A stretch of DNA of 59,367 nt, the filler included, from Thelocarpon superellum (Eukaryota), in the NCBI GenBank assembly GCA_026025795.1. It is 2 parts of 2 records of this genome, joined end to end, with 100 filler letters (N's around TTAATTAATTAA, not from the genome) between each part and the next. Parts side by side here need not be neighbours in the genome. Positions count along the whole stretch, not along the records: positions 1 to 29,638 come from JAPEUG010000215.1; 1 more part is not named here. The stretch is one strand, 5' to 3'. A program made the translations under genes and the position numbers. Shown here piece after piece: positions 1-29,738 of this stretch (position 1 is the stretch's first letter; the number at the start of each line of letters is the position of its first letter). Below the pieces are notes generated by a model. It did no database searches, had not been told where the DNA came from, and saw only the letters and a program-made list of their open reading frames with translations.

Positions 1-1341
1 CGTCCCGTCTCTCGTATCCGAGTATGACAGGCAACGAGATTATCGTCAATGCCACCCCGTCCGCAACATGATTGGACATAGTGACGACGTGCTCAGCCTC
101 CTTGAACTCCTCCGCGGAGATCACTGGGAATGCAGATGCGGCATCAATTCTGAGGCACTTGTTGCCTGTCCTCACACGGGTCCACGTTGCGAGCGATAAT
201 GAGGCACAGTAAACATCAGGATTACCCGCTCCACAGCGACTTCCGATTGTTCGGATTGCGCAGAAGCGTGGCTGTGTCAGCAAACACTCTGCTCGCCTCT
301 GCCATGTACTCGTGTGCTCAGGCCGACTACTTATCGCGGCTGTAGCCCCCACCAACCGGCTTCTCTGCTCAAAAGGCGGCAACGGTGTGGCACAGCCATC
401 GTCCAAACCGGTAAGATATCTGGTGGAAAAGGAGAAGATGGAAGAGACCTTTCGTGGCAGAGGCCAGACAGGTCTGGTTGCCTCTGACGGATGAAGATTC
501 TTGAGGGATCTTGACTCTGCTAGTGTAGTTATCATGTTGGTGCCCAACAGTGCTGGCCGACCGGCAAGACAACACCGCCGGCTTCGACGAGAGCGAGGTG
601 CGGTCATTTCTTGGCGCACTGCACGTGGCGCGGCTGCGCTTGAAAGGATGCCTCTCTCGTGGGAACGAGCACAGCGCCCGACCCAAAAAAGCGGCGAACC
701 CCGAGCGGGTTCGGTTGCAGTTCTGAAGACCACAATTCCAACCACCACGACGCAAACACATGTTACTATCGTAGACGGTAGGCTAGTCGAATATTGGGCC
801 TTCTTCCTGGCCGAATAGAAGTTCAATTTTACGTTGTTGGGTTGCTGTGTCGCTGTCGTGGCCAGGGTCATGGGTGTCAGAACTGCAGCCAGAACCGGTA
901 TGGCATTTTCGCTTTCTTGTTGGGCACGTGCGAATTTGACTTGTGCAAAGTACTTCGCACGAGCACGAGTGCCGGTACTCGTACTGAGTAACATACTCCT
1001 AGTACGACTAGGTGCAGTTTCTAGAAATGAGACCATGAGAGAGTTACCCAAGTCCCTGCAGACTTATCGCGGTGCTTGCCGCAGACCTTTACCCCGCTCC
1101 ACCATCATCTCTTCATTTGCCGACAAGCATGACACCCTGTGCCGAAGCTGGATAGCAGTTCTTCGTTCTTTGGTAAAGACAGTATTGTGGTACCCAGTAC
1201 TACCCTGAATATACTCTCTCTCCACTTCCAAGACCGAGCGGCCATCCGCTGCTCCCTCACGCTCACATGGCCCACGTCATCATTGGCGGCGAGAATAGTG
1301 CTTGAGGGCGCCGGTCAAACTCCTACTGATTCTACTACCTC

Positions 1342-1789
1342 TTATGACTCATCGTAACTGGCACAGTCGATCTACTTGGACCAGCGGAGGCCGAATCCAC
1401 CTACAGCCCGCGCTCCTGGAACAAGCTGTGGTCAACTGGAGCCCTTCTAGAGGCCATCAGGTGCTTACCTCTGGATGGGTGTCGATGGCCCCTCTTACTC
1501 GGGCCCGTCGTTGTACGACCACATCGATCGACTGGACGCACCGTCGACCTCGACACCACGCTCCTGCACCTGTTCCTTCTCGGGCTCGTCCTTGTACGAC
1601 CACATCGATCAAGTGGACGCCACGTCAACCTCGACGCCACGATCCTAGTGAAAGTCAGTCGCGGCTCAGATCCACTCCTCTCGCAGGAATGACCGACATC
1701 GAGTTTCTTGTCCGCTGTGGTCGTGGGTGCCGCATGAACACCGGCAGCGGCAAGCCCAGCCAGAATGAAAGGATTTGCGTCGGCTTCAT
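1342..1789 (-). pseudogene. Repeat-containing secreted peptide precursor (putative dikaritin/KEP-type RiPP precursor), disrupted
   Basis: Manual minus-strand reading. ATG at 1789 gives MKPTQIL, then a 1-nt deletion in a T run (~1769), then FILAGLAAAGVHA-APTTTADKKLD (signal peptide + pro region). Intron 1697-1645 (GTCGGT..CTGAC..TAG). Exon 2 reads DRGVEVDVAST*SMWSYKDEPEKEQVQ / ERGVEVDGASSRSMWSYNDGPE*. Intron 1468-1416 (GTAAGC..CAG) precedes a degenerate third unit, ERGL*VDSASAGPSRS..SYDES*. Adjacent to DUF3328 genes. Confidence 0.8.
1498..1644 (-). repeat. 81-bp (27-codon) tandem repeat, ~1.8 copies, plus a degenerate third copy at ~1342-1415
   Basis: Plus-strand TTGTACGACCACATCGATC occurs at ~1511 and ~1592, 81 bp apart, and the surrounding sequence also aligns (..TGGACGC..GTC.ACCTCGAC.CCACG). 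Confidence 0.9.
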
Positions 1790-1897
1790 CGTAAGGTTGG
1801 AAGGACTTCTTCTGATTCGATGTTCTCAAGTGGTCAGAAAGGCTCGTCGATGAGATGCTCGATGGGGTTTCGAAGATGGTTGAGAGATGAGGAGACC

Positions 1898-1903
1898 TTT
1901 ATA
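1898..1903 (-). promoter_or_regulatory. Candidate TATA box of the precursor gene
   Basis: Minus-strand TATAAA ~110 nt upstream of ATG 1789, followed by a C/A/T-rich leader ending ACGATG. Confidence 0.5.
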
Positions 1904-2526
1904 CCGTCGACGGACGACTTGGGAGGCACCCCGCCGCGCCCTACATACAGCATCCTTTCTCCCTGAGATTCCTTGACGGCATCCACTACGTACTCAAGAC
2001 GTCTTCGCGGTCATGCCAGTTTCTGAACGGTACGTTGGGCTTCTCCAATTGCTCCGTCTCATCTCACCAACGGTTCTCGGACTTCCGAGGTTGGTGCGGA
2101 AGTCCCATCTGCTCGAGACGTTTCCACGAGGGCTATCGTGGTACCATCCTCCCGTCATCTAAGCTGCGAAATGGCTGTGCCCCTTCAGCAAGACGGCGGG
2201 GTTTCGCCGAGTGCCAGTCGCCGGTCAGACTGGACGGAGCTGACCGACCTGTCTTTTTGCACGCGCCACACCGCCCTTACCACTCCTGGACGCTTCTCCG
2301 CGCGCGCCGGACGAACCAAAACCACTCTCTGTTACCGGAGACGAACGAGACGTACCCGTTGATGTAGGACCATGCAGGGTCCGAGAGATGGCCGAGACAC
2401 ATTCTCCGTGACCGTGTTGATTTCCAAGTCTCCAACTCCAAACCTACAATCGGTTTGGGAGCGCTACTCCATTGACTCTGGTGTCATGCACGCGATGATT
2501 TTCTACTATAGCAACATTCCACGAAT

Positions 2527-3429
2527 TCATGACATGTCCAAGGGATCATCGAGGGCATGGACTTCAAAGTCAAAATCGCCCAACAGACGGTTGTCCATGC
2601 CCCATTGCCGAATCTTGTCGCGATCACGACAAGTGTGCGCGATCTGAGCAATCTCCTTGGTGCGCTTACTGCTCTCGTCCCACTCCCATACGAGAACGGA
2701 GACGTCCGCATTACACATGAGGTTCTGGCGGATGGTGTCGATGCAGTGGTCGATGTGCTCCATGCCTAAGAGCTCGTGGTCGCCAGGATACTGCACGGTG
2801 GCATACATGGCTTGACGCACCATGTTGAGGCAGTGGAGCTGGTGGAAGACGGACAGGCCGACGATATAATGACCAGGATCCTTGGGGATCCGTACGGTTT
2901 TGTTGACCAGTTGGGCGGCATGCGCGTTGGGATGCGACTGATACCATCTGGACAGCGGGCGCTGGTTGGCAGGTGCAAGCAAGAAAGGGTCAGATGCTGC
3001 AACGTCACTCACGGTTCTAGAGCGCCTCACAAGCAGCGTTGTTCGCGTCGTTGGGCTTTCCTTGGTAGATGGTCTTGTCTCCCGTAAAACTGCCAGCGAA
3101 AACCTTGATCTCATACTCCACTGCATCGTTTGCCGGCGCCATCACCGCGATTCCAGGTCAGCAGGTCAGTGCCTGGGCGTGTCGAGCCATCCGCGGAGCG
3201 ATCGGAACTCACAATAGGTCAAGAACGGGTTATGCCGCGGCTGCACCAAGTGATCATTTACGAGGCCGGCTAGGAGCAGGGCCACTTAAATCCAAGGCCG
3301 CACCACGAAGAGGTACCGCAGGATCTGGGTCCTGCGGTGGCGACGAGGCGCATATTCAATCAAATCCGGCGCTTTCTTCTCTAGGGAATCAAACGATGAA
3401 TGATCTTCGGGCAGCAGATTGTGCGACAT
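2527..3429 (-). pseudogene. DUF3328/UstYa-family RiPP oxidase, disrupted
   Basis: Both HxxHC motifs are intact (VFHQLHCL; EHIDHCIDTIRQNLMCNAD), plus HTCRD..IRQW. Upstream exons: MSHNLLPEDH..ILRYLFVVRPWI*VALLLAGL (TM segment, TAA at 3288-3286), and YSPANDAVEYEIKVF..YQGKPNDANNAACEAL*N (TAG at 3019-3017). A frameshift lies between GISRIP and AAQLVNKT (~2920). Confidence 0.88.
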
Positions 3430-3719
3430 GATTGTTCGGGAACGGGGAGGAAGGACGAAAGAAAGAAGGAAGTTTGGTATGAACGGCAGTCACACCAGCA
3501 CACCCGGTTAAGCTGCCCTACGGGCATGGGGCGGTGTCTTCATATGAGCCCCTACGGCTCGCCCGCTGCCGCTTTTGTCTCAGCCAAACTGCTCTCGAGC
3601 CTAGCTGCACCAACAAGTCCGTGTGTTGTGTCTTCCCACATTCACTGGCATTGATGGCAGCACGGAGACAGGTCAGCCGCAAGGGCCCAAGGTCCACTCA
3701 TCAAGTTCCTTCCGTCAAG

Positions 3720-4410
3720 ATGTGGTCCAAGCTCTGCTACGCGCTGCCAAGAGCCGCCGGACTTGGCGCACGGATGGAGAAGGAGACACTAAAGCCTCCC
3801 GATGAGAGCTCGTCAGCGCCATAGGTGCGTTGCGTCAGAGATAGACATTGGACATTCCGTGGTCGTTGCGCTACTGCTACTCCTGCTGCTGCTTCGTCGT
3901 GCTTGTGCCCTTGCGCAGGTCACGCTGAAGCGTGATGGCGCCGTCATTAGTCTTACTGGACCTCCTTCAGGCAAGGAGCGGTAAGTACGTCCTTTATCTG
4001 TCCAACAAAGATGTATATGTCTCCTCTACCTTGCCGTTTCCACGGTCATCGCGAGGCTGGCAAAGGCGCGCGAGCGGGACAGATCGTGAATTGCTCTTCG
4101 TTGCCACCTTGTTCTCGGGGCAAAGCTGTCAAGAGAAGGCGGTAGATGCAGAGAAGTCGCAGAGCATCGCTGACTGAGCGACCCATGCAGGCTCCTGTAC
4201 GTGTCTACCACATAACAGCTGACCTTGGTCAGCTTTCTCGTGGTAAACTCCAGTATCTTGCCTGATGGACTGCAGCGCGTTGTAGCCACGCGATGTAGCT
4301 TGCTTAGTCACTCGCTTGCCTGCATTCCCCCTGTCCTGCGGATTTAAATTCCCCGAGTGGGGAGGTACTTTAGAAGGCATTGATATTTGCAGGACCTCAT
4401 GTATCATGCC
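3720..4410 (+). pseudogene. Probable heavily eroded third DUF3328/UstYa gene
   Basis: MWSKLCYAL..EKETL N-terminus, then a frameshifted hydrophobic stretch (SVVVALLLLLLLLRR) and a GTAAGT donor. VYHI.. at 4203 is followed by an intron ending CTGATGGACTGCAG, a position like that after HQLxCL in the neighbouring gene. GIDI-QDLMYHA at 4376-4410 resembles CIDxLRQxLMCHA. Confidence 0.4.
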
Positions 4411-5019
4411 TGTCAGAATCGAGGATCAGCCATGACGTTCGATACGGCCCCGGTCGGACCACGTCGCGGCAGTTTGAGACAATTCCGAAGATTCAAGCTA
4501 CGCATCATCGGGTGGCAGAAGGAAGCTGCGAGGATGACAGCGCGCGAACGGGTCTACGCCAAAAGGAGGATGTGATCCCATCCCGCGCGGTACGGGCCGA
4601 AGGATGCCGTGAGGACAGACACCACCGGCCGTCTCGTACTTAGATAAGCTTAAGTTGGAGGTCCAGCGTGATTCGAAATCTCACCGTCTCGGTGACCGCT
4701 CTCCTCTCCGTGAGGCTTGTACCGACGCCTTCGCAGAATCACTGCCGTCTGTGAAACGTATTTACGACTTCGTCGAAACATGTTTAGCTATCCCAACGAG
4801 GGCCCAGGATATGCCTCTGTTTCCCCTTTGGACCTCGGGTCTCCCTCGGGGATCCAGCGAGGCCCCGGGTCGTGCTGGCTTCCATCTTGTAGAGTTGTGT
4901 CATGACCATCTCCATGGCTTGAGTCTATCTACCTTCTTTGCTTCTCTCGTATGTGACGTACCGCTCTGGCCGTGACCACCTGATCCCGCCGATCCTCATC
5001 CTCATCCCCCAAGTTGCGC

Positions 5020-6090
5020 ATGTCCATTGAAGATGTCGACTTGTCCTCCAATAGAAGCGAGAGCGGAGAGTCTCTGCTCAAGGGCGCGCCCTCCGTCGAC
5101 GAGCCGAGTCCGGCTCGGCCTCGTTCTTGCGGGAGACACGGCGTCTGGTTTACCCATGGCGCCTCACTACTCGTCTCCTTCGTGACCCTCCTCGCTGGCT
5201 TCAATGGTCTTGTGCAGGAGTCAACCCGCGAACTGGAACAGTGTTTATCAGCGGAGCGAAACCCCCTGGACCTAATACCTCATGCATATGGTACGTGTCG
5301 ATGTTCCCAAACGTCACCATCTGCCATCGTGCTGATCGAGCGGCTGGTGGACGGCGCCGGTATGGGGTGCGATCGAGTACGAGCGGTCCGGTTTCAGCTC
5401 TCGCCGACCAAGCCTACGGCGTACTACGGACCGGCCAACCCAGCCCTCGATTTTGAGTGGCACGGCATTGCTCAACGTGAGTCTCATCGGCATCTACGGT
5501 CCATTCGCGTCCTACTCAAATATTACGTGTAGATGAATTGTCACGATCGACGCGCACGACGTGGCCAGTCTGAACCAGTCCTCTGCGGCGCCATGGGAAG
5601 CCAGCATGCATGGCGAGACTCGATATCTGGCGGGCATTGAGATGTTTCATCAACTCAACTGTCTGGTATGTCCACATCACCACCTACCCTCTCGACCTTT
5701 CATCACTGCCAATCTGACTGATGAACTGCAGGATTTCATCCGCCGGTACATGTACAAGGACGAGTACTTCCAGGACCTCGACCTCAAGGACGACGAAGAT
5801 GTTCTGATCCAGAAACAAGGTATGTCCAACGCCATGCAGCGCCGCCAGATACAGGCTTTGTGAACCGATCTAACGCGGGGGGCCGCTCGTACACAGACCA
5901 ATGCGTCGATCATCTTCAACAGGTCATCATGTGCCATGGCGACGTGGGAATCATCACCTATCAGGAGCGAGCGGGGGGGTCCAAGTCCAACGCGAAGGCC
6001 AGCGATAACTACGTCCCGGAGTACTCGACCAGGCATCCGTGCAGAACGTGGGATCCGATGGTCGAGTGGGCGGACATTCACAGCATATAG
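5020..6090 (+). pseudogene. DUF3328/UstYa-family protein with degenerate His motifs, frameshifted
   Basis: N-terminal TM segment (VWFTHGASLLVSFVTLLAGF), APVWGAIEYE, YYGPANPALDFEWHGI, YLAGIEMFHQLNCL, DFIRRYMY, KQDQCVDHLQQVIMCHGDVGIITY, HPCRTWDPMVEWA. Four introns, with apparent 1-nt deletions at ~5383 and ~5535. Confidence 0.82.
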
Positions 6091-6226
6091 CCTCGACAGT
6101 GCCATCCCTACGGACCATAGTGTTGTCTGTATCTTATCCACCTGTGTCACTGAATGATTGCAATGCATCCACTTGGGCAGATTCCTTCCGAATTGTAACG
6201 TACATGGGAGTGGAAAGACAGGTGGA

Positions 6227-7255
6227 TCAAGAAGACGGAGGATCAATGCGAGGGCCAGCAGAGCGGTACGATCGATTGATGTACATCAATCCCTCCGGCC
6301 CCTGCTCCATCCGCTGATGCTCCAGCACGGAACCCTCGTCAACCGAGGCTGGCGCGGACCGGGATGAGGATGGAGACGGAGACGGAGACGAGATGGCCAG
6401 GACGCGCGCCACGACAATGACATGGTCGTTGACGTGCCAGCCCTCGAGGCCTTCCATCTGACACTTCAGGCTTGCCACAAGACTCTCCGAGCCCGTCAAG
6501 TCTGTTGGCGTCGTCTTCCCACCGCTTCGCAACCCGCTGAAGTGTCGCGCGAGGGCTGCCCCGTCGAGCGTGCTCGCGGGAAAATGGATGTAGAAGGGCT
6601 GGGAGGGGTACAGGGTGATGCTATCGTAGGTGGATGAGGGAAGTCGCACGTTGAATGTGACGAGTGGTACCGGGTGCAGCGAGAGGGTGGTGAAGGTCGA
6701 TAGAGTCATGCCGGGAGGCTTCTTGATCGTGGAATGGGAATCGGCGCGGTCTGGAACTGGGTCGGTGGTCAGGATGGTCACGGACGACGGCATGCGGCGC
6801 ATGAGATGTCGAAGGGTGGAAGAGAGGGGGCGGGGGTTCGGCGAGTCAACCAGGTCGTGTCGAATCCCAGAGGGCTTGTTCTTGAAGGGGGACCCTCGTG
6901 ATGCTGCGGCTGGACCGTTGCGCCATGAGGGGTCGACTCGACGGATCTGTAATCCATGCTTGGGGTTTGTGAATGGTGGACCTCGTTTGGTTCGGGATAC
7001 TTTGTGGATGGTTGGCCCATCGTCGGACGCGGGAAGGATCGAGATACGGGACCGCCCTGTGTAGAGTGATCAGCATGACGTATGGAGCTGCCGTACGAAG
7101 TCAGAGTGGAAGTCGTGTGCAATACCTGGTGAGTGGGTCAACTGAAAGGCGCGAGTCCATTGGCGAAAGAGGGAGAAGAATTGTCGCGAGCGGAGAGTTC
7201 CCGCATGCGAGACTAAGGTGACCGATGCGGTCCGTGGCAGATATGAGGGAGGCAT
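6227..7255 (-). CDS. Flavin reductase-like domain oxidoreductase, probably mitochondrial
   Basis: LRHLMRRMPSSVTILTT..GMTLSTFTTLSLHPVPLVTFNVRLPS..NDHVIVVARV fits the Flavin_Reduct pattern. A 69-nt intron (7125-7057) removes the TGA and joins an Arg/Ser-rich presequence-like exon 1. Confidence 0.75.
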
Positions 7256-7502
7256 GGGGTGTGGATATGTTCGGGAGAACTCCCTATGAGCAAGAGGTGC
7301 CCCGGATCACCCAATGTCGGAAGCTCCGATTTTCTTTGGCGGGCGCTCGTCGGTGCGTCGCCACCTTTTGAACCGATCAACAGCCGAGACGACGACGCTT
7401 GCATCTTCAATCTGCGAGTTGCAAGTTGTGGTCTCCATTGGCACAGTTGCCTTGCCCTCCCCCACCATCCACCACCCTCTTTCGCATTTCCCAGTCCGCA
7501 CC

Positions 7503-11178: not shown

Positions 11179-12921
11179 TCACGCCGCGACCACCCGCCCG
11201 CTATCCACGATGATCTGCTCATCGATGCGATCTTCTGACTGACCTGGCTCAAGCCGCTTGTAGGTGGTGATGCGCGCTTCGTTGGTATCGATGTCGAAGA
11301 ATCGCAGCCGTCGTAGATATCCCCCGTACCCGCCATATCCGCCGAATCCCGACCCGCCTCCGTAGCACATCCAGAGCGCCGGCTTACTGCCGTCGGTCTC
11401 GAGTGAGCAGTAGTCGTTGACGTGGTCGCTGGAAGCAGACGAGAGCGTTAGCGATGAGAAGGCCAGGAGGCGACGACGAGGGACGTACTGGCCGCAGCTG
11501 ACGAACAAGACCCCCTGTTGCACCAGCGCGTCACGAAAGCCCGAGTTGTATCCCGGGGCGGTCGGACCTTCCTTCCACCCGCCGACAATCTGGTTGTCGG
11601 TCTTGCGGTATTCGGGCAGCGGGATATGGATAAAGGCCATGTCCATGTGGAAATGGGTGTAGGCTTCGTGCGCCTTCTTGAGCCCCTGCGCCGTCTCCTT
11701 GAACCAGTCGATCTGGCTGGGCTTGAGCCAATCGTACCCTTTGTACTTGTCTTCATCCGGCGAGTAGCTGTGGGTGTCGAGCAGGTAGAGGGTCAAGGCG
11801 GAATGGTGCGAGGTGCCTCGCGCGAGGACCTCGACATAGTAATTTCCCACGCCGTCCACCGTGCTATGGCCTGCTTCGGAGAGGGAATACGGAAGCGATT
11901 CAACGAGTTCCATCGACGCGGCGCGCGAGAGCGAGCCTTCATCGTCGTGGTTGCCAAAGATGGTGACATAGGGAATCTTTCGCTTGATGAAGAGTTCGGC
12001 GTACTTGAAGATGGCCTACCTACACGTCAGCGGGTACAGAGGGAGATGGCGCGGAACACCGACGCTTTGAGCATCCGGGGACGTCTCCCCGTTGACCTGA
12101 TCACCGGTGAGCACGACGAGGTCGGGTTTCTCTTGATCCATGATCGTCCCCACGAACTCCAACGTCCGCGGGTCGGCATCACACGTCATCCCGTTTCGCA
12201 TGGTCGGGACGGGATCTCGGCAGGACCCGAAGCCCGTGCTGAGATGGAGATCGGCCACCTGCATGATCTTGAACTTGCCGTCCTTCCGGATCCGCGGCAC
12301 TGGCTTCTCCAGCTTGGCGGGTGGGCCGCGTCGCACACTCAGCCGGGCCTCCTGCTTCTCACCCGAGGTATCCAAGAGCAGGGGCGTGTCCCTGATCTCC
12401 CAGTGTTGCCGGGGCTCGACGGCATCGGCCCCGAACAGGACATCGATCGCCGTGATGGCCTTTTCCGAGTCGCTGGCGTGGCGTTTCGCCGTGCGCTGCA
12501 ACCAGATGCCGGCCGGGCGCGACTCCCATCGGTGCTCGCCCTCCCTCATGGCCGAGGCGGTCGGATCCTGGCGGCCAACGCGGACGTCGAGGACCACCTT
12601 GTCCTCGGGAAGAAGCTCTTCCTCTTTCTTGCGTTGGACGTGGATGTAGGCATTGGACATCCAGCCGCTGTTGAGGTAGAGGTCCTTCTCGACGCGACTC
12701 CATTTCTCCGGGTCCAGCCGGCATGTGGAGAACAAGGAGAGGCTGGAGCAGGTGGCGACGGAGATATCGATGACTACCAGGCCGGGGTGGTGCATGGGGA
12801 GATGGTCGTGGATGGACTGAGGCAGGACGCGGAAGCGGTTATCGAGCACGAAGATGATGAGGATGGTGAGGGCGGCGACCAGTCCCAGCTGGACGCCCGT
12901 CCGCACAATGCGTCGAGACAT
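11179..12921 (-). CDS. DCR2: Calcineurin-like metallophosphoesterase, Dcr2/Sia1 family
   Basis: FKIMQVADLHL, DLVVLTGDQVNG, IFGNHDDE, AFIHIPLPEY, SCGH(intron)DHVNDYC, GGGSGFGGYGGYGG; N-terminal TM anchor. Confidence 0.88.
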
Positions 12922-13302: not shown

Positions 13303-15318
13303 GGAGTAGCTACGGTCAATTCTGTACAACCACCAATTCTGTACAGAATCGGGGTCAGGAGGCCTACAGATCAGATTGACAATGCAATTGCAAAGTAGAT
13401 ACATTAGATAGCTAGGAGAGAAGGGTCTATAGACTGGTAACTTGATTCAAAGTTGTTTTGATCCAATTAGGCCACTTCTTCATCATCTGTAGCCTCTAAT
13501 ATCACTTCTGTCCCTATTGTCTGACTTGCTTGTTGGCTATTCAAGGCCTCTTCCTTCACTGCCTTAACCTCTAGCTGACACTTCTTGCACTTGTCCTTCA
13601 CAATTGACACCTGTAGCTTAAGATCCTGTCATTGCTAGCATTGACCTTCCTAGTTCTGCCATTGTACAACCTCTTCCTCATGTTCTAGCTCTTTCTGTCA
13701 AATGAGCTCCTGTGCTTCCTTGACACAGAGCAACCCTCCACACTGTAGAACAGTCTGGCAACATGTGGAACATTGCACCCATTCCTTGATTGACTGGCAG
13801 AGGTTGTCCAGCTCTGATTCCATCAGTATTGCACATGACATCAACTGCTCAGTGCTCTGTACAAGCTTCAGCAACACCTCTGGAAGGTGAGGGATGTTGT
13901 CAACAGGTTCCACAGCCAGTAGCAAGGCCTCTGTGTGTTGTTTGATCTGCTGTAGTGTTGTAGGGGTCTAGAGTAGTAGGGTGGAAGGGCCATTGTTGTT
14001 GTTGTCATTGTCATTAATCAGAGGTGTAGCAGGTCACAAGGCCTTATTCAATTGCTGCAGTATAATGTCTGGTTTGTATAGCATGATGCCTGTCTTCTAG
14101 AAGGCCAACTTCACATTTGATTTGGTGAAAGCTTGCTAGCAAACACATAGCAGGATTGACAGGAATTGCACCTTGTCAATAGCCTTGTTGCCACATCACA
14201 CAGCATCGTCAACAGCACAGGTGTAGTAGTGCTTGTAGGGCTAGAAGCAACTGACATCCAACAGCTGCAGTAGGTGGCTCATATAGGGTAGTAGGCAAAC
14301 CAGGATGATATCAAGGTCCCAGGCCTTAATCACAAAGTCTAGGGTGACATGACTACCATAGCCATCTATCAGTAGCAGTCGATATCAGCCATGGGCGCTA
14401 TCCTTCATGAAGTGGTTGAATATCGATTCAAGCTATTCAATGGCAATGGTGTCTATGGTCTAGCCCTTGGGTGATGTTGCTATCATCCAGTTGCTTGGAA
14501 GGTTGGCCTTGTGCAAATACCATGTTGCAGGGTGTTGTTGGCTAGGCATGATGATTAGCAGAGGCAGAATAGAGCCATCAGATCAGATACACTCAACAGC
14601 TGTTATCCATGTACAGGTGCCAGGCTGTGTCACCAATGCCTGGTGCTTCTTTGAGCCAGAATGGCAGACAACTCTCATACATCTAGCAACACCACTGAGG
14701 AAGCCTGTCTTGTCAACATTCCATATGTCATCCTCTACAACACCATACTCCTATATGATGTCCTGGAATTGCTGAAACCACCTGTTGACATGGTTCCTGT
14801 CAGTACAGTTGGCACATATGCTATCCAGAGGTTGACTTGGTGTTGTCATATACTCCAGATGACACTTGACAAAGCGATTGGCCCAATTGATGCCAACAGA
14901 TGGTGTGGTGTTGTCTTCTGTATGATTCGACTTGGTGAGGAGCTTGTTGGCATATCCACAGATGATATCCAGCTGTGGAGGAAAGCTGGCCCTGATCAAC
15001 CAATTGATTGACACCTTGAGTGCTTCCTCCTGAGGTCTCGAGAGCTTCTGATTGTGCCCACTGTTCAGAGCCCACAGTTGGTCACCATTGGCACATCCTA
15101 GGAGCTGGCAGTAAGGAGTGTGGTAATAGGCTGCAGCCTGGCGAAGGGATGTGAATTGACCTGTGTTATACACGTCATAGGCCTCCTGGATGAGGCTCTC
15201 AGAGTCTTGAGCTGATTGCTCCATTCTGTGTGGCATGGTGGTTGATCCTAGGTCACCGCGGGGGGTTCACGATGCTGTACGGAATTGGTGGTTGTACGGA
15301 ATTGACCGTAGCTACTCC
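13303..15318 (-). mobile_element. Fot1/pogo-type (Tc1/mariner superfamily) DNA transposon, full length but mutated
   Basis: 44-bp TIRs (GGAGTAGCTACGGTCAATTCYGTACAACCACCAATTCYGTACAG) at 13303-13346 and 15275-15318 contain an internal direct repeat and are flanked by TA (13301-2, 15319-20). The interior is AT-richer than the flanks and holds a transposase remnant. Confidence 0.92.
13450..15236 (-). pseudogene. DDE_1 (pogo/Fot1) transposase with multiple in-frame stops
   Basis: N-terminal HTH region SLRQAAAYYHTPY..LSRPQEEAL..VGINWANRFVK. Catalytic region LLIDGYGSHVT..LLPYMSHLLQLLDVSCF*PYK at ~14230-14375. 3' end approximate. Confidence 0.88.
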
Positions 15319-15431
15319 TACCACGAAGTGGCGGTCCACGGTCGCGTCACGCGCCCTACAAGCTTGTACGAGCACTCCCGTACCTCTTGAACCCGGCACT
15401 TTTTGCCCTCGGGTTGGAGTAAGAGGCAGTC

Positions 15432-16842
15432 ATGAACCATGTATCGTCCGCCTTGTCGAGACATCTTGCGCGTCGTCGAGCTGGTCAAAGAATACACTGG
15501 ACATGTCTACGATGTCGAACTTTCTCCTTCCACACCTCGGTCGAGCGTGGGGTCATCCGTGGTAAGACTGGTGTACGACGTCCGTCGCAGGAGATCAAAC
15601 GGCTAATGGTCAATTAAAGAGCACGATGCGGTGATCCTTCGACGAGACTCGAACCCCAATGCACCTTCACAATTTATTCCAAAATTGGAAGAAGACGGGC
15701 AGTTTCACTCGCATCGAGGATACATTCGACACGCAGATATCATTGGAAAAGGGGTCCGGGAGGTAGTGGAGACCACTCAGGGTAATTTGGTTTGGCGATA
15801 TGATAGTCCAGGTCTGGACTAACATTGCGTTATACAGGGAAGAGATATAGGATCCATGTTCCCACGTTGGCAGAATATGTGACATTGAGACGACGGCACG
15901 TCACGCCCGTAAGAATTCCCACAATTCTATGATTGACCAGATCGTTCATCTTTCCAGATCTACCCCGCCGACGCCAACCTGATCGTCTCTCTTCTGGACA
16001 TTCACGCCGACCGCTCCATTCGTGATGACAAGCTGGAGATCCTCGAAGCAGGCACGGGCCAAGGATCGCTCACCCTCCATCTCGCACGAGCCATCCACGG
16101 CGCGAATCCACCAACACCGTACATCCCCGAGGTGCCCCATGCCGACGATGGTGGCGCCACCGCCGCCGCCGTCCAATCCACGGAATACACCGAGTGGCGT
16201 CAGAGCCGCAATGCCATCATCCACAGCGTGGAAGTGTCACCGAAATACTCATACCTGGCACGACACGTAGTCTATGGCTTCCGACACGGGCTTTACTACC
16301 CCGACGTCGACTTCCACACAAGCGACGTCTCACAATGGCTCGACACCCATGCGAATTTGCACGGGAGAAACACGGCGGCCTTTCTGAGCCATGCAATCCT
16401 GGATCTACCATCCAGCGAGCTCCATCTGCCGCGCGTCGCACAGGCACTGCACCCCGACGGGGCTCTCCTGACCTTCAACCCCAGCATCACACAGGTCATG
16501 GCGTGCGCGGCGCACGTCAAGGCCGAGTCGCTCCCGCTTGTGCTGGCGCGCGTGCTCGAGCTGGGTAACAATGCGGCCAGTGGGGGCCGGGACTGGGATG
16601 TTCGCGTCGTTACGCCTAGGGCTACCCTGAAGGCACAAGAGAAGCTGAGGGATGAAGAGGGCCGAGAGGGGGAGGAGAAAGAGGGGGTAGATGAAGGCGG
16701 GGGAGAGGGAGAATGTGTTGGAGTGGAAGAGCAAGATACCCGCCATAGCTGGAAGACCATTTGCCGCCCAAAAGTAGGCGAGCGTATAGTAGGAGGGGGC
16801 TTCGTAGGACTATGGCGTAAGACGAGAGAGAGAGAGAGATGA
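15432..16842 (+). CDS. TRM61: tRNA (adenine-N1)-methyltransferase catalytic subunit, Trm61/GCD14 family, probably mitochondrial
   Basis: HRGYIRHADIIGK, PTLAEYV, VTP/IYPADANLIVSLLDI, ILEAGTGQGSLTLHLARA, AILDLP, FNPSITQ; three introns; Arg-rich presequence-like N-terminus. Confidence 0.85.
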
Positions 16843-29638: not shown

Positions 29639-29738
29639 NNNNNNNNNNNNNNNNNNNNNNNNNNNNNNNNNNNNNNNNNNNNTTAATTAATTAANNNNNN
29701 NNNNNNNNNNNNNNNNNNNNNNNNNNNNNNNNNNNNNN
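29639..29738. other. Artificial contig-join linker (N44-TTAATTAATTAA-N44)
   Basis: A palindromic 12-mer with stops in all six frames, embedded in symmetrical N runs. Confidence 0.97.

What the first reader, a model, noticed from the sequence alone, without database searches (positions are those of the whole stretch)
1342..1789. Hidden RiPP precursor gene with an unfamiliar SMWSY repeat core
Seen: repairing one missing T gives a textbook signal peptide (MKPTQILFILAGLAAAGVHA/AP). After splicing, it is followed by 27-aa repeats [D/E]RGVEVDxAS[T/S]R-SMWSY-[K/N]D[E/G]PE, and there is an upstream TATAAA. The ORF track shows only wrong frames. Established: fungal dikaritin precursors (UstA, PhomA, AprA, GigA) are signal peptide + repeats with acidic spacers and Tyr-containing cores that DUF3328/UstYa enzymes cyclise. 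Inference: SMWSY is the core. It matches none of the cores I know (YAIG/YVIG, YVIPID, FYYTGY, GLKLAF), and its W-x-Y spacing could support a small Trp-Tyr crosslinked macrocycle. Units are bounded by DR/ER and SR/TR rather than classical KR Kex2 sites.
Basis: partly seen in the sequence, partly recalled or inferred. Interest (0 to 1): 0.88.

Follow-up and report, generated by a model that had tools for sequence, protein, structure and literature searches.

The report
Broken RiPP precursor beside UstYa genes
A small fungal gene for a secreted, repeat-bearing peptide lies next to two UstYa-type oxidase genes, so it looks like a ustiloxin-style cyclic-peptide precursor with an unlisted Trp/Tyr motif, but in this genome it is broken and cannot make the peptide.

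Summary
The gene exists, on the minus strand (1903-1495). It has a TATAAA, one ATG, a 53-nt intron typical of this genome, and two 81-nt tandem repeats. First, repeat 1 has an in-frame TGA exactly where it wrote "[T/S]R", so translation stops before either SMWSY. Second, two UstYa/DUF3328 genes lie 0.7 and 3.2 kb away, which is the context its hypothesis needed. Third, the nearer UstYa has two in-frame stops and a splice-phase mismatch, and the farther one lacks 3 of its 4 copper-binding histidines. The frame break in the signal peptide is real in the reads. My verdict is a decayed dikaritin-type (DUF3328-dependent) RiPP locus. Of 1.84 billion representative proteins, one probable homologue turned up: three repeats with KR sites. 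It shares EVD-x4-RS-x-W-x-Y, so W and Y are invariant, but the core is no better conserved than the upstream block, and the match statistics are inflated by the repeats. No paper searched carries the motif. This is a new member of a known kind, and interest is moderate.

The parts
1898..1903 (-). TATAAA promoter element, 109 nt upstream of the ATG
   Evidence: It is 1 of 5 TATAAA in 59 kb on both strands (shuffles give a mean of 4).
1698..1789 (-). Exon 1. The ATG (1789-1787) frame runs for 7 codons. The signal-peptide-like stretch then lies in the +2 frame (1769-1698). The frame break is at or near the T-run 1768-1770.
   Evidence: Mean Kyte-Doolittle value is 2.06 over ILAGLAAAG, with V at -3 and A at -1 before AP. 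No ATG exists in the +2 frame. X1 contigs are identical at depth about 130-156.
1645..1697 (-). Intron of 53 nt, donor GTCGGT, CTGAC branch 14 nt from the 3' end, TAG acceptor
   Evidence: At 8 of 11 exon junctions of housekeeping genes in this window, the best candidate is an intron of 47-54 nt with CTRAY 12-20 nt from its 3' end. All 8 have G at +5, and one uses the same GTCGGT.
1564..1644 (-). Repeat 1 (27 codons), with an in-frame TGA at 1611-1609 directly before S-M-W-S-Y
   Evidence: Low-depth contigs of a 98%-identical relative read TGG there.
1495..1563 (-). Repeat 2 (22 codons; CGA=Arg before S-M-W-S-Y) and the TAA stop at 1497-1495
   Evidence: Codon log-likelihood of 1644-1498 in this frame is +18.3 bits.
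1362..1417 (-). Possible relic of a third repeat, out of frame, with a TAG. Weak evidence.
   Evidence: Local alignment score is 12. It is reached by 14 of 500 dinucleotide shuffles and by 19 of 497 real-sequence controls.
2527..3429 (-). UstYa gene 1. The catalytic exon 2961-2530 is intact (HQLHC and HIDHC present). The N-terminal half is damaged: TAA at 3288-3286 inside the membrane helix, W-to-C and TAG at 3019-3017 in the conserved W..LY motif, and a 1-nt phase mismatch across the 51-nt intron 3012-2962.
   Evidence: (PF11807, 114.7 bits against a cut-off of 25). Of 2,396 GT-AG splice paths from ATG 3429, 0 keep the helix segment after the TAA and 2 keep the VEYEIKVF motif.
5020..6090 (+). 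UstYa gene 2, a divergent copy. It reads HQLNC and (Y/K)..QC where the family has HxxHC twice. The conserved segment 5537-5600 is one base out of phase with the upstream exon.
   Evidence: (33.6 and 45.2 bits against a cut-off of 25). Of 52,948 splice paths, 0 keep that segment. A formally open model that skips it with a 124-nt intron does exist.
6230..7069 (-). Flavin-reductase-like gene (PF01613) next to UstYa gene 2. Whether it belongs to the cluster is unknown.
   Evidence: E 1.2e-16. Codon score is +60 bits.

Best explanation
This is the decayed copy of a precursor gene for a DUF3328/UstYa-dependent fungal RiPP, the dikaritin or Kex2-repeat-protein kind.

How an intact version would work is inferred from the family, not shown here. 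An N-terminal signal peptide takes the protein into the secretory pathway. Each about 27-residue unit carries a conserved acidic/recognition block (G.EVD...[T/S]R) followed by S-x-W-x-Y. Membrane-anchored, binuclear-copper UstYa oxidases encoded next door would cross-link the aromatic side chains. The most likely link is a Tyr ether to a residue two positions away, as in ustiloxin and asperipin; a Trp-Tyr link is possible. Proteases would then release the cores.

In this genome the pathway is dead. A TGA precedes both cores. The ATG is one base out of register with the signal peptide. The nearer UstYa gene has two stop codons and a splice-phase error. The farther one lacks three of its four copper ligands.
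For: Shown here.

(1) Gene signals: TATAAA, a single ATG, and a 53-nt GTCGGT...CTGAC...TAG intron that matches this genome's inferred intron norm. All 8 short introns inferred at 11 junctions have G at +5.

(2) The repeat frame is coding by codon usage: +18.3 bits over 49 codons. True frames give 21 +/- 12 and off-frames give -28 and -25 (87 pieces).

(3) It is the only tandem repeat of size in 1-7400.

(4) Two PF11807 UstYa genes lie within 4.3 kb. The nearer one ends 738 nt upstream of the ATG. Outside these two genes, none of the 390 ORFs scanned (140 + 136 + 114) matched UstYa.

(5) One probable homologue, P0002 (94 aa, from a metagenome contig), has three units AEVDAVATRSGWYYNAK(K)R. E, V, D, T, S, W and Y are invariant in register (phmmer E 2.2e-5; 42% identity).

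(6) The lesions are real in the reads. X1 contigs are identical at depth about 130-156.

(7) UstYa 1 shows lesions against 7 homologues. UstYa 2 has HQLNC/..QC, whereas 8 of 8 other sequences have both HxxHC motifs.

From papers, passages read. DUF3328 proteins are dimeric, membrane-anchored binuclear copper enzymes. Changing the HxxHC His or Cys to Ala abolishes activity (PMC12435403). Dikaritin precursors are a signal peptide plus repeated cores, with DUF3328 genes most often at the adjacent gene position (PMC7329392; PMC6514808; PMC9233826).
Against: (1) The homology to P0002 is not secure. Its E-value sums near-identical repeats, and an unrelated 1752-aa repeat protein (P0003) scored almost as well (E 8.2e-5). 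In decoys that keep P0002's composition and tandem structure, 2 of 20,000 reached the observed score. That is not rare enough for a 1.8-billion-protein library.

(2) No other relative was found, and P0002's neighbours could not be seen.

(3) The window copy has no dibasic Kex2 site between or after its units.

(4) There are only two repeats.

(5) Exon 1 codon usage does not separate the ATG frame (+0.3 bits) from the signal-peptide frame (+3.4 bits). Two splice models need no frame break: a 49-nt intron with donor GTCATT and a 97-nt intron with donor GTGTTC.

(6) The 98%-identical relative shows no indel across 1530-1848, so it shares the same register. That fits either an old frame break or no break at all.

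(7) UstYa 1's catalytic exon differs from that relative at 2 of 404 sites, against 11 of 621 elsewhere (one-sided Fisher p 0.06). Any loss of function may therefore be recent.

(8) A formally open model of UstYa 2 exists.

(9) No signal-peptide predictor could be run.
Confidence: 0.6

Rival explanations
1. Same kind of gene, but with no frame break. The ATG frame is the true exon 1, and a non-consensus donor (GTCATT with a 49-nt intron, or GTGTTC with a 97-nt intron) joins it to the repeats. The only lesion in the window is then the TGA, and the sister strain (TGG) would carry an open precursor gene of about 65-81 residues.
For: Both splice paths are open up to the TGA. The relative shows no indel across 1530-1848 and reads TGG instead of TGA. 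The one exon-1 difference (1718) is synonymous in the ATG frame and non-synonymous in the +2 frame. The ATG frame is also hydrophobic (Kyte-Doolittle up to 1.86).
Against: Neither donor has G at +5, whereas all 8 of the short introns inferred in this window do. The ATG-frame N-terminus has no small residues at -3/-1 after its hydrophobic run; the +2 frame has V-H-A|A-P (the -3/-1 rule is recalled). The 14 codons after the hydrophobic run score -4.4 bits in the ATG frame and +0.7 in the +2 frame. The TGG reading rests on contigs of depth 3.3 and 2.8 from a single study.
Confidence: 0.2
2. A secreted repeat peptide unrelated to the UstYa genes, for example a pheromone-like or other Kex2-type repeat protein that is never cyclised. 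Its position beside UstYa genes would be coincidence.
For: 78% of Kex2-processed repeat proteins have no DUF3328 gene within 15 genes (PMC7329392, passages). The window copy has only two units and no tyrosinase, methyltransferase, transporter or S41 peptidase hit in 1-7400.
Against: Two UstYa genes lie within 4.3 kb, one of them the immediate neighbour. Elsewhere in the 59-kb window there are none. DUF3328 counts peak at the position next to such precursor genes, and mating-factor precursors almost never have them nearby. The invariant residues include an aromatic pair two residues apart. The window begins about 1.3 kb beyond the gene, so further cluster genes could lie outside it.
Confidence: 0.08
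3. Not a gene: a non-coding 81-nt tandem duplication that happens to look like a repeat peptide in one frame.
For: In-frame TGA, a frame break, only 1.8 copies, no Pfam hit, and only one debatable homologue.
Against: The six-frame codon profile matches real genes. TATAAA, the ATG and a canonical intron lie in the right order and phase. P0002 matches across the full unit.
Confidence: 0.05
4. The product is the open reading frame as it stands: the 165-codon Arg-rich frame 1898-1404(-), or the ATG frame spliced into it by the 53-nt intron.
For: It is the longest open frame over the region and needs no repair.
Against: Codon log-likelihood over the repeats is -30.3 bits, typical of an off-frame (-28 +/- 14). 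It has no Pfam hit. The composition is what an acidic, GC-rich gene gives when read one base off.
Confidence: 0.02

Closest known systems
UstA / ustiloxin cluster (Aspergillus flavus, Ustilaginoidea virens)
   Same: Signal peptide followed by tandem units. Each unit has an acidic motif before a short Tyr-containing core (ED...YAIG...KR in UstA, per PMC6514808). Two DUF3328 genes (UstYa/UstYb) sit in the cluster. The known cross-link joins residues two positions apart (PMC9233826).
   Different: UstA has 16 units against 2 here, and KR after each unit (none in the window copy). No tyrosinase (UstQ) or methyltransferase hit occurs in 1-7400. The core contains Trp. There is no sequence similarity to UstA. 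The gene is broken.
AprA / asperipin-2a cluster
   Same: A minimal cluster: precursor, DUF3328 oxidase and a reductase-type gene, with no tyrosinase (PMC6514808). The core is aromatic-rich (FYYTGY, compared with GWYY in P0002 and MWSY here). The links are ethers from Tyr side chains to beta-carbons.
   Different: Asperipin has one DUF3328 gene against two here. No transporter was found here. The reductase-type neighbour is of another family (flavin-reductase-like PF01613, and its membership in the cluster is unproven). The repeat sequences are unrelated.
Kex2-processed repeat proteins (KEPs) with DUF3328 neighbours (Umemura 2020, PMC7329392)
   Same: General architecture and gene neighbourhood. 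That survey already notes W-containing types among DUF3328-linked KEPs.
   Different: The window copy has no dibasic sites, so it would not pass a KEP screen. None of six motif strings from this family occurs in the 3 supplementary files held.
UstYa-type loci of lichen-forming fungi (Pasinato and Singh 2025, PMC12048977)
   Same: UstYa homologues with HxxHC motifs are widespread in lichen-forming fungi. The closest named protein here comes from a Thelocarpon superellum genome.
   Different: That survey found no repeated precursor in the two clans it analysed, and Thelocarpon is not mentioned in it. Here a repeat precursor sits beside the UstYa genes, though decayed.

Membership tests
Dikaritin-type RiPP precursor (DUF3328-associated repeat precursor) | N-terminal signal peptide | tested here: inconclusive
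   A canonical-looking n/h/c region exists, but it is 1 nt out of frame with the only ATG. No signal-peptide predictor was available.
Dikaritin-type RiPP precursor (DUF3328-associated repeat precursor) | Tandem repeats that each carry a short conserved core | tested here: met
   81-nt period, 1.8 copies, 86% matches. S-M-W-S-Y occurs in both units.
Dikaritin-type RiPP precursor (DUF3328-associated repeat precursor) | Dibasic (KR) Kex2 sites bounding each unit | tested here: not met
   There is no KR, RR or KKR in the 49 residues of the two units. The probable homologue P0002 has KKR or KR after its first two units.
Dikaritin-type RiPP precursor (DUF3328-associated repeat precursor) | DUF3328/UstYa gene(s) close by | tested here: met
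   PF11807 at 2530-3141(-) with E 7.3e-33, and at 5537-6087(+) with E 4.8e-8 and 1.3e-11.
Dikaritin-type RiPP precursor (DUF3328-associated repeat precursor) | Aromatic residue (Tyr) in the core available for cross-linking | tested here: met
   W and Y are invariant in all five units of the window copy and P0002.
Dikaritin-type RiPP precursor (DUF3328-associated repeat precursor) | Open reading frame able to deliver a core | tested here: not met
   TGA at 1611-1609 precedes both cores under every splice model. The letters are confirmed in X1 contigs.
Dikaritin-type RiPP precursor (DUF3328-associated repeat precursor) | A modified (cyclised) peptide product | not testable with these tools
   Needs expression of an intact relative and mass spectrometry.
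UstYa / DUF3328 copper oxidase (neighbour gene 1) | Pfam PF11807 above the curated cut-off, and both HxxHC motifs | tested here: met
   114.7 bits against 25. HQLHC and HIDHC are present.
UstYa / DUF3328 copper oxidase (neighbour gene 1) | Uninterrupted N-terminal membrane helix and full-length reading frame | tested here: not met
   TAA at 3288-3286 lies in the helix. TAG lies at 3019-3017. There is a phase mismatch at intron 3012-2962. The public 193-aa model starts at an internal Met and uses a 34-nt 'intron'.
UstYa / DUF3328 copper oxidase (neighbour gene 2) | HxxHC(x)nHxxHC copper site | tested here: not met
   It reads HQLNC and (Y/K)..QC. The 8 other sequences in alignment A3 all have both motifs. 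His-to-Ala changes abolish activity in CctR (PMC12435403).

The most novel reading that the evidence does not exclude
The EVD-x4-RS-x-W-x-Y repeat marks a real, so far undescribed family of DUF3328-dependent fungal RiPPs. In it a copper UstYa oxidase joins Trp and Tyr, or Tyr-O to the beta-carbon of Trp two residues away, into a small indole-containing macrocycle. That ring type is not among the known dikaritins. The family would be intact in the organism behind P0002, and perhaps in the sister strain seen in moss metagenomes. It would also be the first repeat-type precursor tied to UstYa genes in a lichen-associated lineage.
Probability: 0.2. Interest if true: 0.7.

Novelty: new member of a known kind. 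Interest (0 to 1): 0.42.

Why it matters
Fungal UstYa/DUF3328 oxidases are widespread, but most have no known substrate. A recent survey of lichen-forming fungi could not find the repeated precursors that should accompany them (PMC12048977). Here a precursor-like gene was invisible to ORF-based annotation because it is small, intron-split and broken. It was still recoverable from the DNA, and it gives a searchable motif (EVD-x4-RS-x-W-x-Y) with an invariant Trp/Tyr pair. If intact relatives exist beside working UstYa genes, they are candidates for a new cross-link chemistry. The locus also shows that public gene models can hide decay: the 193-aa model of the neighbouring UstYa gene skips a stop codon by using a 34-nt 'intron'. 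For this genome itself the finding is a relic, and no product is expected.

Tried and rejected
- Whole genome: none is held for this window. Paralogues and the number of UstYa genes per genome could therefore not be counted.

- Expression: no RNA holder was listed among the sequencing runs.

- Relative strain (X2/X3): its contigs cover only 1530-1848, 2193-2343, 2364-2514 and 2556-2959. The state of the UstYa 1 stop codons in that strain is unknown.

- More homologues:
  - P0002 'near' search found only itself among 286 candidates.
  - The alignment A2 'longer' search gave 0 of 6,439 candidates at E <= 1.
  - The metagenome scan with the precursor alignment gave 598 pattern matches, 0 confirmed.
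  - The metagenome scan with the UstYa 1 exon gave 124 matches, 0 confirmed.
  - No collection of fungal genomes was on hand.

P0002's contig and neighbours therefore stayed out of reach.

- P0003 (E 8.2e-5) was rejected as a relative. It is a 1752-aa adhesin-like repeat protein that matches 28 residues.

- A third, decayed repeat at 1417-1362 has only weak support: 14 of 500 shuffles and 19 of 497 real controls reach its score. With stricter scoring it is not above shuffles.

- The as-is Arg-rich ORF was rejected by codon usage.

- The + strand ORFs over the region score as the antisense of a gene.

- Rfam has no family hit in 1-7400.

- Literature: five motif strings were found in 14 papers, none about fungal peptides. 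Six strings were absent from the 3 held supplementary files of PMC7329392. Other supplements of that paper or of other papers may list such repeats, and I could not see them.

- An intron at 5291 in UstYa 2, together with an 'IEYE' reading in another frame, was considered and dropped. The ATG frame is open from 5020 to 5476 and carries its own SP.A-like motif.

- No structure or complex prediction was run. Neither would have changed the verdict.
Full report
**What is in the sequence**

The feature lies on the minus strand. Reading 1960 to 1280 shows the following:

- TATAAA at 1903-1898. This is one of only five TATAAA in the 59-kb window on both strands.
- A single ATG at 1789-1787, 109 nt downstream of it.
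- A stretch GTCGGT...CTGAC...TAG of 53 nt (1697-1645) with the form of a fungal intron.
- Two tandem units of 81 nt (1644-1564 and 1563-1498). TRF gives period 81, 1.8 copies, 86% matches and score 235.
- A TAA stop at 1497-1495.

This is the only sizeable tandem repeat in the first 7.4 kb. Read through with X at the stop, the repeat region is DRGVEVDVASTXSMWSYKDEPEKEQVQERGVEVDGASSRSMWSYNDGPE.

- The X above is a TGA (1611-1609). Translation therefore ends before the first S-M-W-S-Y under any splice model.
- The second unit has 22 residues, not 27.
The ATG frame runs for seven codons. The signal-peptide-like stretch (ILAGLAAAG, mean hydropathy 2.06, then V-H-A|A-P) lies in the +2 frame, which has no ATG of its own. 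The break lies at or near the T-run 1770-1768.
- These letters are not an assembly slip. Contigs that another assembler built from the probable source run (X1, depth about 130-156) match 1200-2317 and 2469-3300 without a single difference or gap. They come from the same reads, so they exclude an assembly error but not a real mutation.

**Which frame is coding**

I trained a codon log-likelihood on 12 well-supported ORF pieces of this window (4,554 codons). The results were:

| Sequence | Sense frames (bits) | Antisense frames (bits) |
|---|---|---|
| Repeat region 1644-1498 | +16 / -30 / -17 | +5 / +2 / -27 |
| Real genes, 87 pieces | +21 / -28 / -25 | +4 / -8 / -38 |

Exon 1 is too short to decide. 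The ATG frame scores +0.3 bits and the +2 frame +3.4.

**Is the frame break needed?**

Two splice paths join the ATG frame to the repeats without any repair. One is a 49-nt intron from donor GTCATT (1693). The other is a 97-nt intron from donor GTGTTC (1741).

I inferred introns at 11 exon junctions of housekeeping genes in the window. At 8 of the 11 there is a candidate of 47-54 nt with a CTRAY branch 12-20 nt from its 3' end. The donors of these eight are GTGAGT (four times), GTAGGA, GTATGC, GTACGA and GTCGGT, and all eight have G at +5. The 53-nt GTCGGT intron fits this norm. The two alternatives lack G at +5.

I therefore prefer the model with a frame break, at roughly 60:30. The choice of 'best' intron at each junction was mine and is not experimental.

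**Surroundings**

I scanned stop-to-stop ORFs against Pfam:

- 140 ORFs of 90 aa or more in the first 29 kb.
- 136 ORFs in the rest of the window.
- 114 ORFs of 35-89 aa in 1-7.4 kb.

UstYa (PF11807) appears in two genes and nowhere else:

- Gene 1 at 2527-3429(-), 114.7 bits against a cut-off of 25.
- Gene 2 at 5020-6090(+), 33.6 and 45.2 bits.

A flavin-reductase-like gene follows at 6230-7069(-). Everything beyond is housekeeping: mitochondrial L31, Vps5, ClpP, LepA, an RNA polymerase largest subunit, chitin synthase and others. A codon-score scan of 1-7400 finds no other coding segment.

The window starts about 1.3 kb beyond the precursor's stop, so the cluster may continue outside it.

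**State of the two UstYa genes**

Gene 1 has a clean catalytic exon (2961-2530). It is 59% identical to a Penicilliopsis zonata protein, and both HQLHC and HIDHC are present. Its N-terminal half is damaged in three places:

- A TAA at 3288-3286, inside the membrane helix.
- Cys in place of the conserved Trp, and a TAG (3019-3017) in place of the Tyr, in the W..LY motif.
- A one-base phase mismatch across the canonical 51-nt intron 3012-2962.

Of 2,396 formally open GT-AG splice paths from its ATG, none keeps the helix segment after the TAA and two keep the VEYEIKVF motif.

The best database match (P0004, 193 aa) is named as a hypothetical protein of a Thelocarpon superellum genome. Every one of its residues is encoded by the window. 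It starts at an internal Met, lacks the helix and skips the TAG with a 34-nt 'intron'. That looks like a gene-finder's workaround.

Gene 2 has a membrane helix and two in-phase introns. It reads HQLNC and (Y/K)..QC where seven homologues and gene 1 (8 of 8) have HxxHC twice. A conserved segment (5537-5600) is one base out of phase with the exon before it. None of 52,948 splice paths keeps that segment. A formally open model that removes it with a 124-nt intron does exist.

According to the CctR study (passages read), DUF3328 proteins are dimeric, membrane-anchored enzymes. The two HxxHC motifs hold two copper ions, and changing these His or Cys residues to Ala abolishes activity. Gene 2 is thus at best a non-catalytic paralogue.

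**A caution on 'dead cluster'**

Low-depth contigs from two moss-metagenome runs of one study (X2 and X3, depth about 3) belong to a relative about 98% identical.

- They show no indel across 1530-1848.
- They read TGG where the window has TGA.
- They differ at 5 of 319 sites over the precursor and at 6 of 302 sites in the two intergenic pieces.
- They differ at only 2 of 404 sites in gene 1's catalytic exon (one-sided Fisher p 0.06).

That trend would fit recent loss of function, or a still-used C-terminal domain. Differences seen in single contigs at this depth may be errors.

**Relatives of the precursor**

A full HMMER search of 1.84 billion representative proteins, using the 49-residue read-through as query, gave two hits at E <= 0.001.

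P0003 is an unrelated 1752-aa repeat protein. P0002 (94 aa, one metagenome contig) has three units of the form AEVDAVATRSGWYYNAKKR. Aligned to the window copy, D, G, E, V, D, T, S, W and Y are invariant in register, and all three P0002 units carry Arg where the window has CGA/TGA.

I treat the homology as probable, not proven. The E-value (2.2e-5) adds up near-identical repeats. The unrelated P0003 scored nearly as well. In 20,000 decoys that keep P0002's composition and tandem structure, 2 reached the observed score.

Further searches found nothing, and P0002's genomic context could not be fetched.

**What the comparison says about the 'core'**

W and Y, two residues apart, are the only aromatic invariants. 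The conserved block runs from G.EVD through [T/S]R-S to W.Y. Only three of the five residues of S-M-W-S-Y are invariant, about the same fraction as in the upstream block.

The upstream acidic block may be a recognition element, as proposed for the ED motif of UstA (PMC6514808).

The linker after the Tyr is not conserved. P0002 has KKR or KR there, while the window copy has no dibasic site at all.

**Comparison with what is known**

The architecture and neighbourhood are those of dikaritin-type precursors. These have a signal peptide, repeated cores and DUF3328 oxidases, which peak at the adjacent gene position (PMC7329392, passages; PMC9233826). The small gene set is closest to the asperipin-2a cluster.

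The membership features score as follows:

- Met: repeats, an aromatic core, UstYa neighbours.
- Not met: Kex2 sites, an open frame.
- Untestable or inconclusive here: the signal peptide, the product.

On novelty:

- The motif strings occur in no fungal-peptide paper among 14 text hits.
- They are absent from the three held supplementary files of the KEP survey.
- That survey already lists thousands of diverse types, including W-containing ones with DUF3328 neighbours.
- A survey of lichen-forming fungi found UstYa homologues but no repeated precursor in the clans it analysed.

**Verdict**

This is a real but decayed precursor-type gene of a known kind with a new repeat family. Its reading of the repeats overlooked the stop codon. 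Its 'SMWSY core with a Trp-Tyr cross-link' remains an untested inference. Interest is moderate: 0.42.

Noticed in passing
window 2527-3142 (-): The closest public protein (P0004, 193 aa, named as a hypothetical protein of a Thelocarpon superellum genome) is encoded residue for residue by the window. It starts at an internal Met and skips an in-frame TAG with a 34-nt 'intron'. It is probably a gene-prediction artefact over a damaged gene.
   Followed up: yes
window 5020-6090 (+): A UstYa paralogue in which three of the four copper-binding histidines are replaced (HQLNC and ..QC). Its membrane helix and two introns are intact. It may be a pseudo-enzyme or a recent pseudogene.
   Followed up: partly
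window 6230-7069 (-): A flavin-reductase-like gene (PF01613, E 1e-16) lies directly beside the UstYa genes. DUF3328 enzymes need electron input (PMC12435403), so a clustered reductase could be a partner. This is untested.
   Followed up: no
window 2288-2451: The probable source run holds two variants of this intergenic stretch (depth 109 and 53, 7 differences). This suggests two strains or haplotypes in the sample.
   Followed up: no
window 14001-16000: G+C drops to 0.49, against 0.55-0.64 elsewhere. The region holds an ORF with a weak Tc5-transposase DNA-binding hit (14754-15266(-), E 3e-4). It may be a transposon relic.
   Followed up: no
window 29639-29682 and 29695-29738: Two runs of 44 N, which are scaffold gaps or masked stretches.
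   Followed up: no
window 12016-12063 (-): The likely 48-nt intron of a metallophosphoesterase-like gene uses the same uncommon donor hexamer GTCGGT as the precursor's intron.
   Followed up: partly
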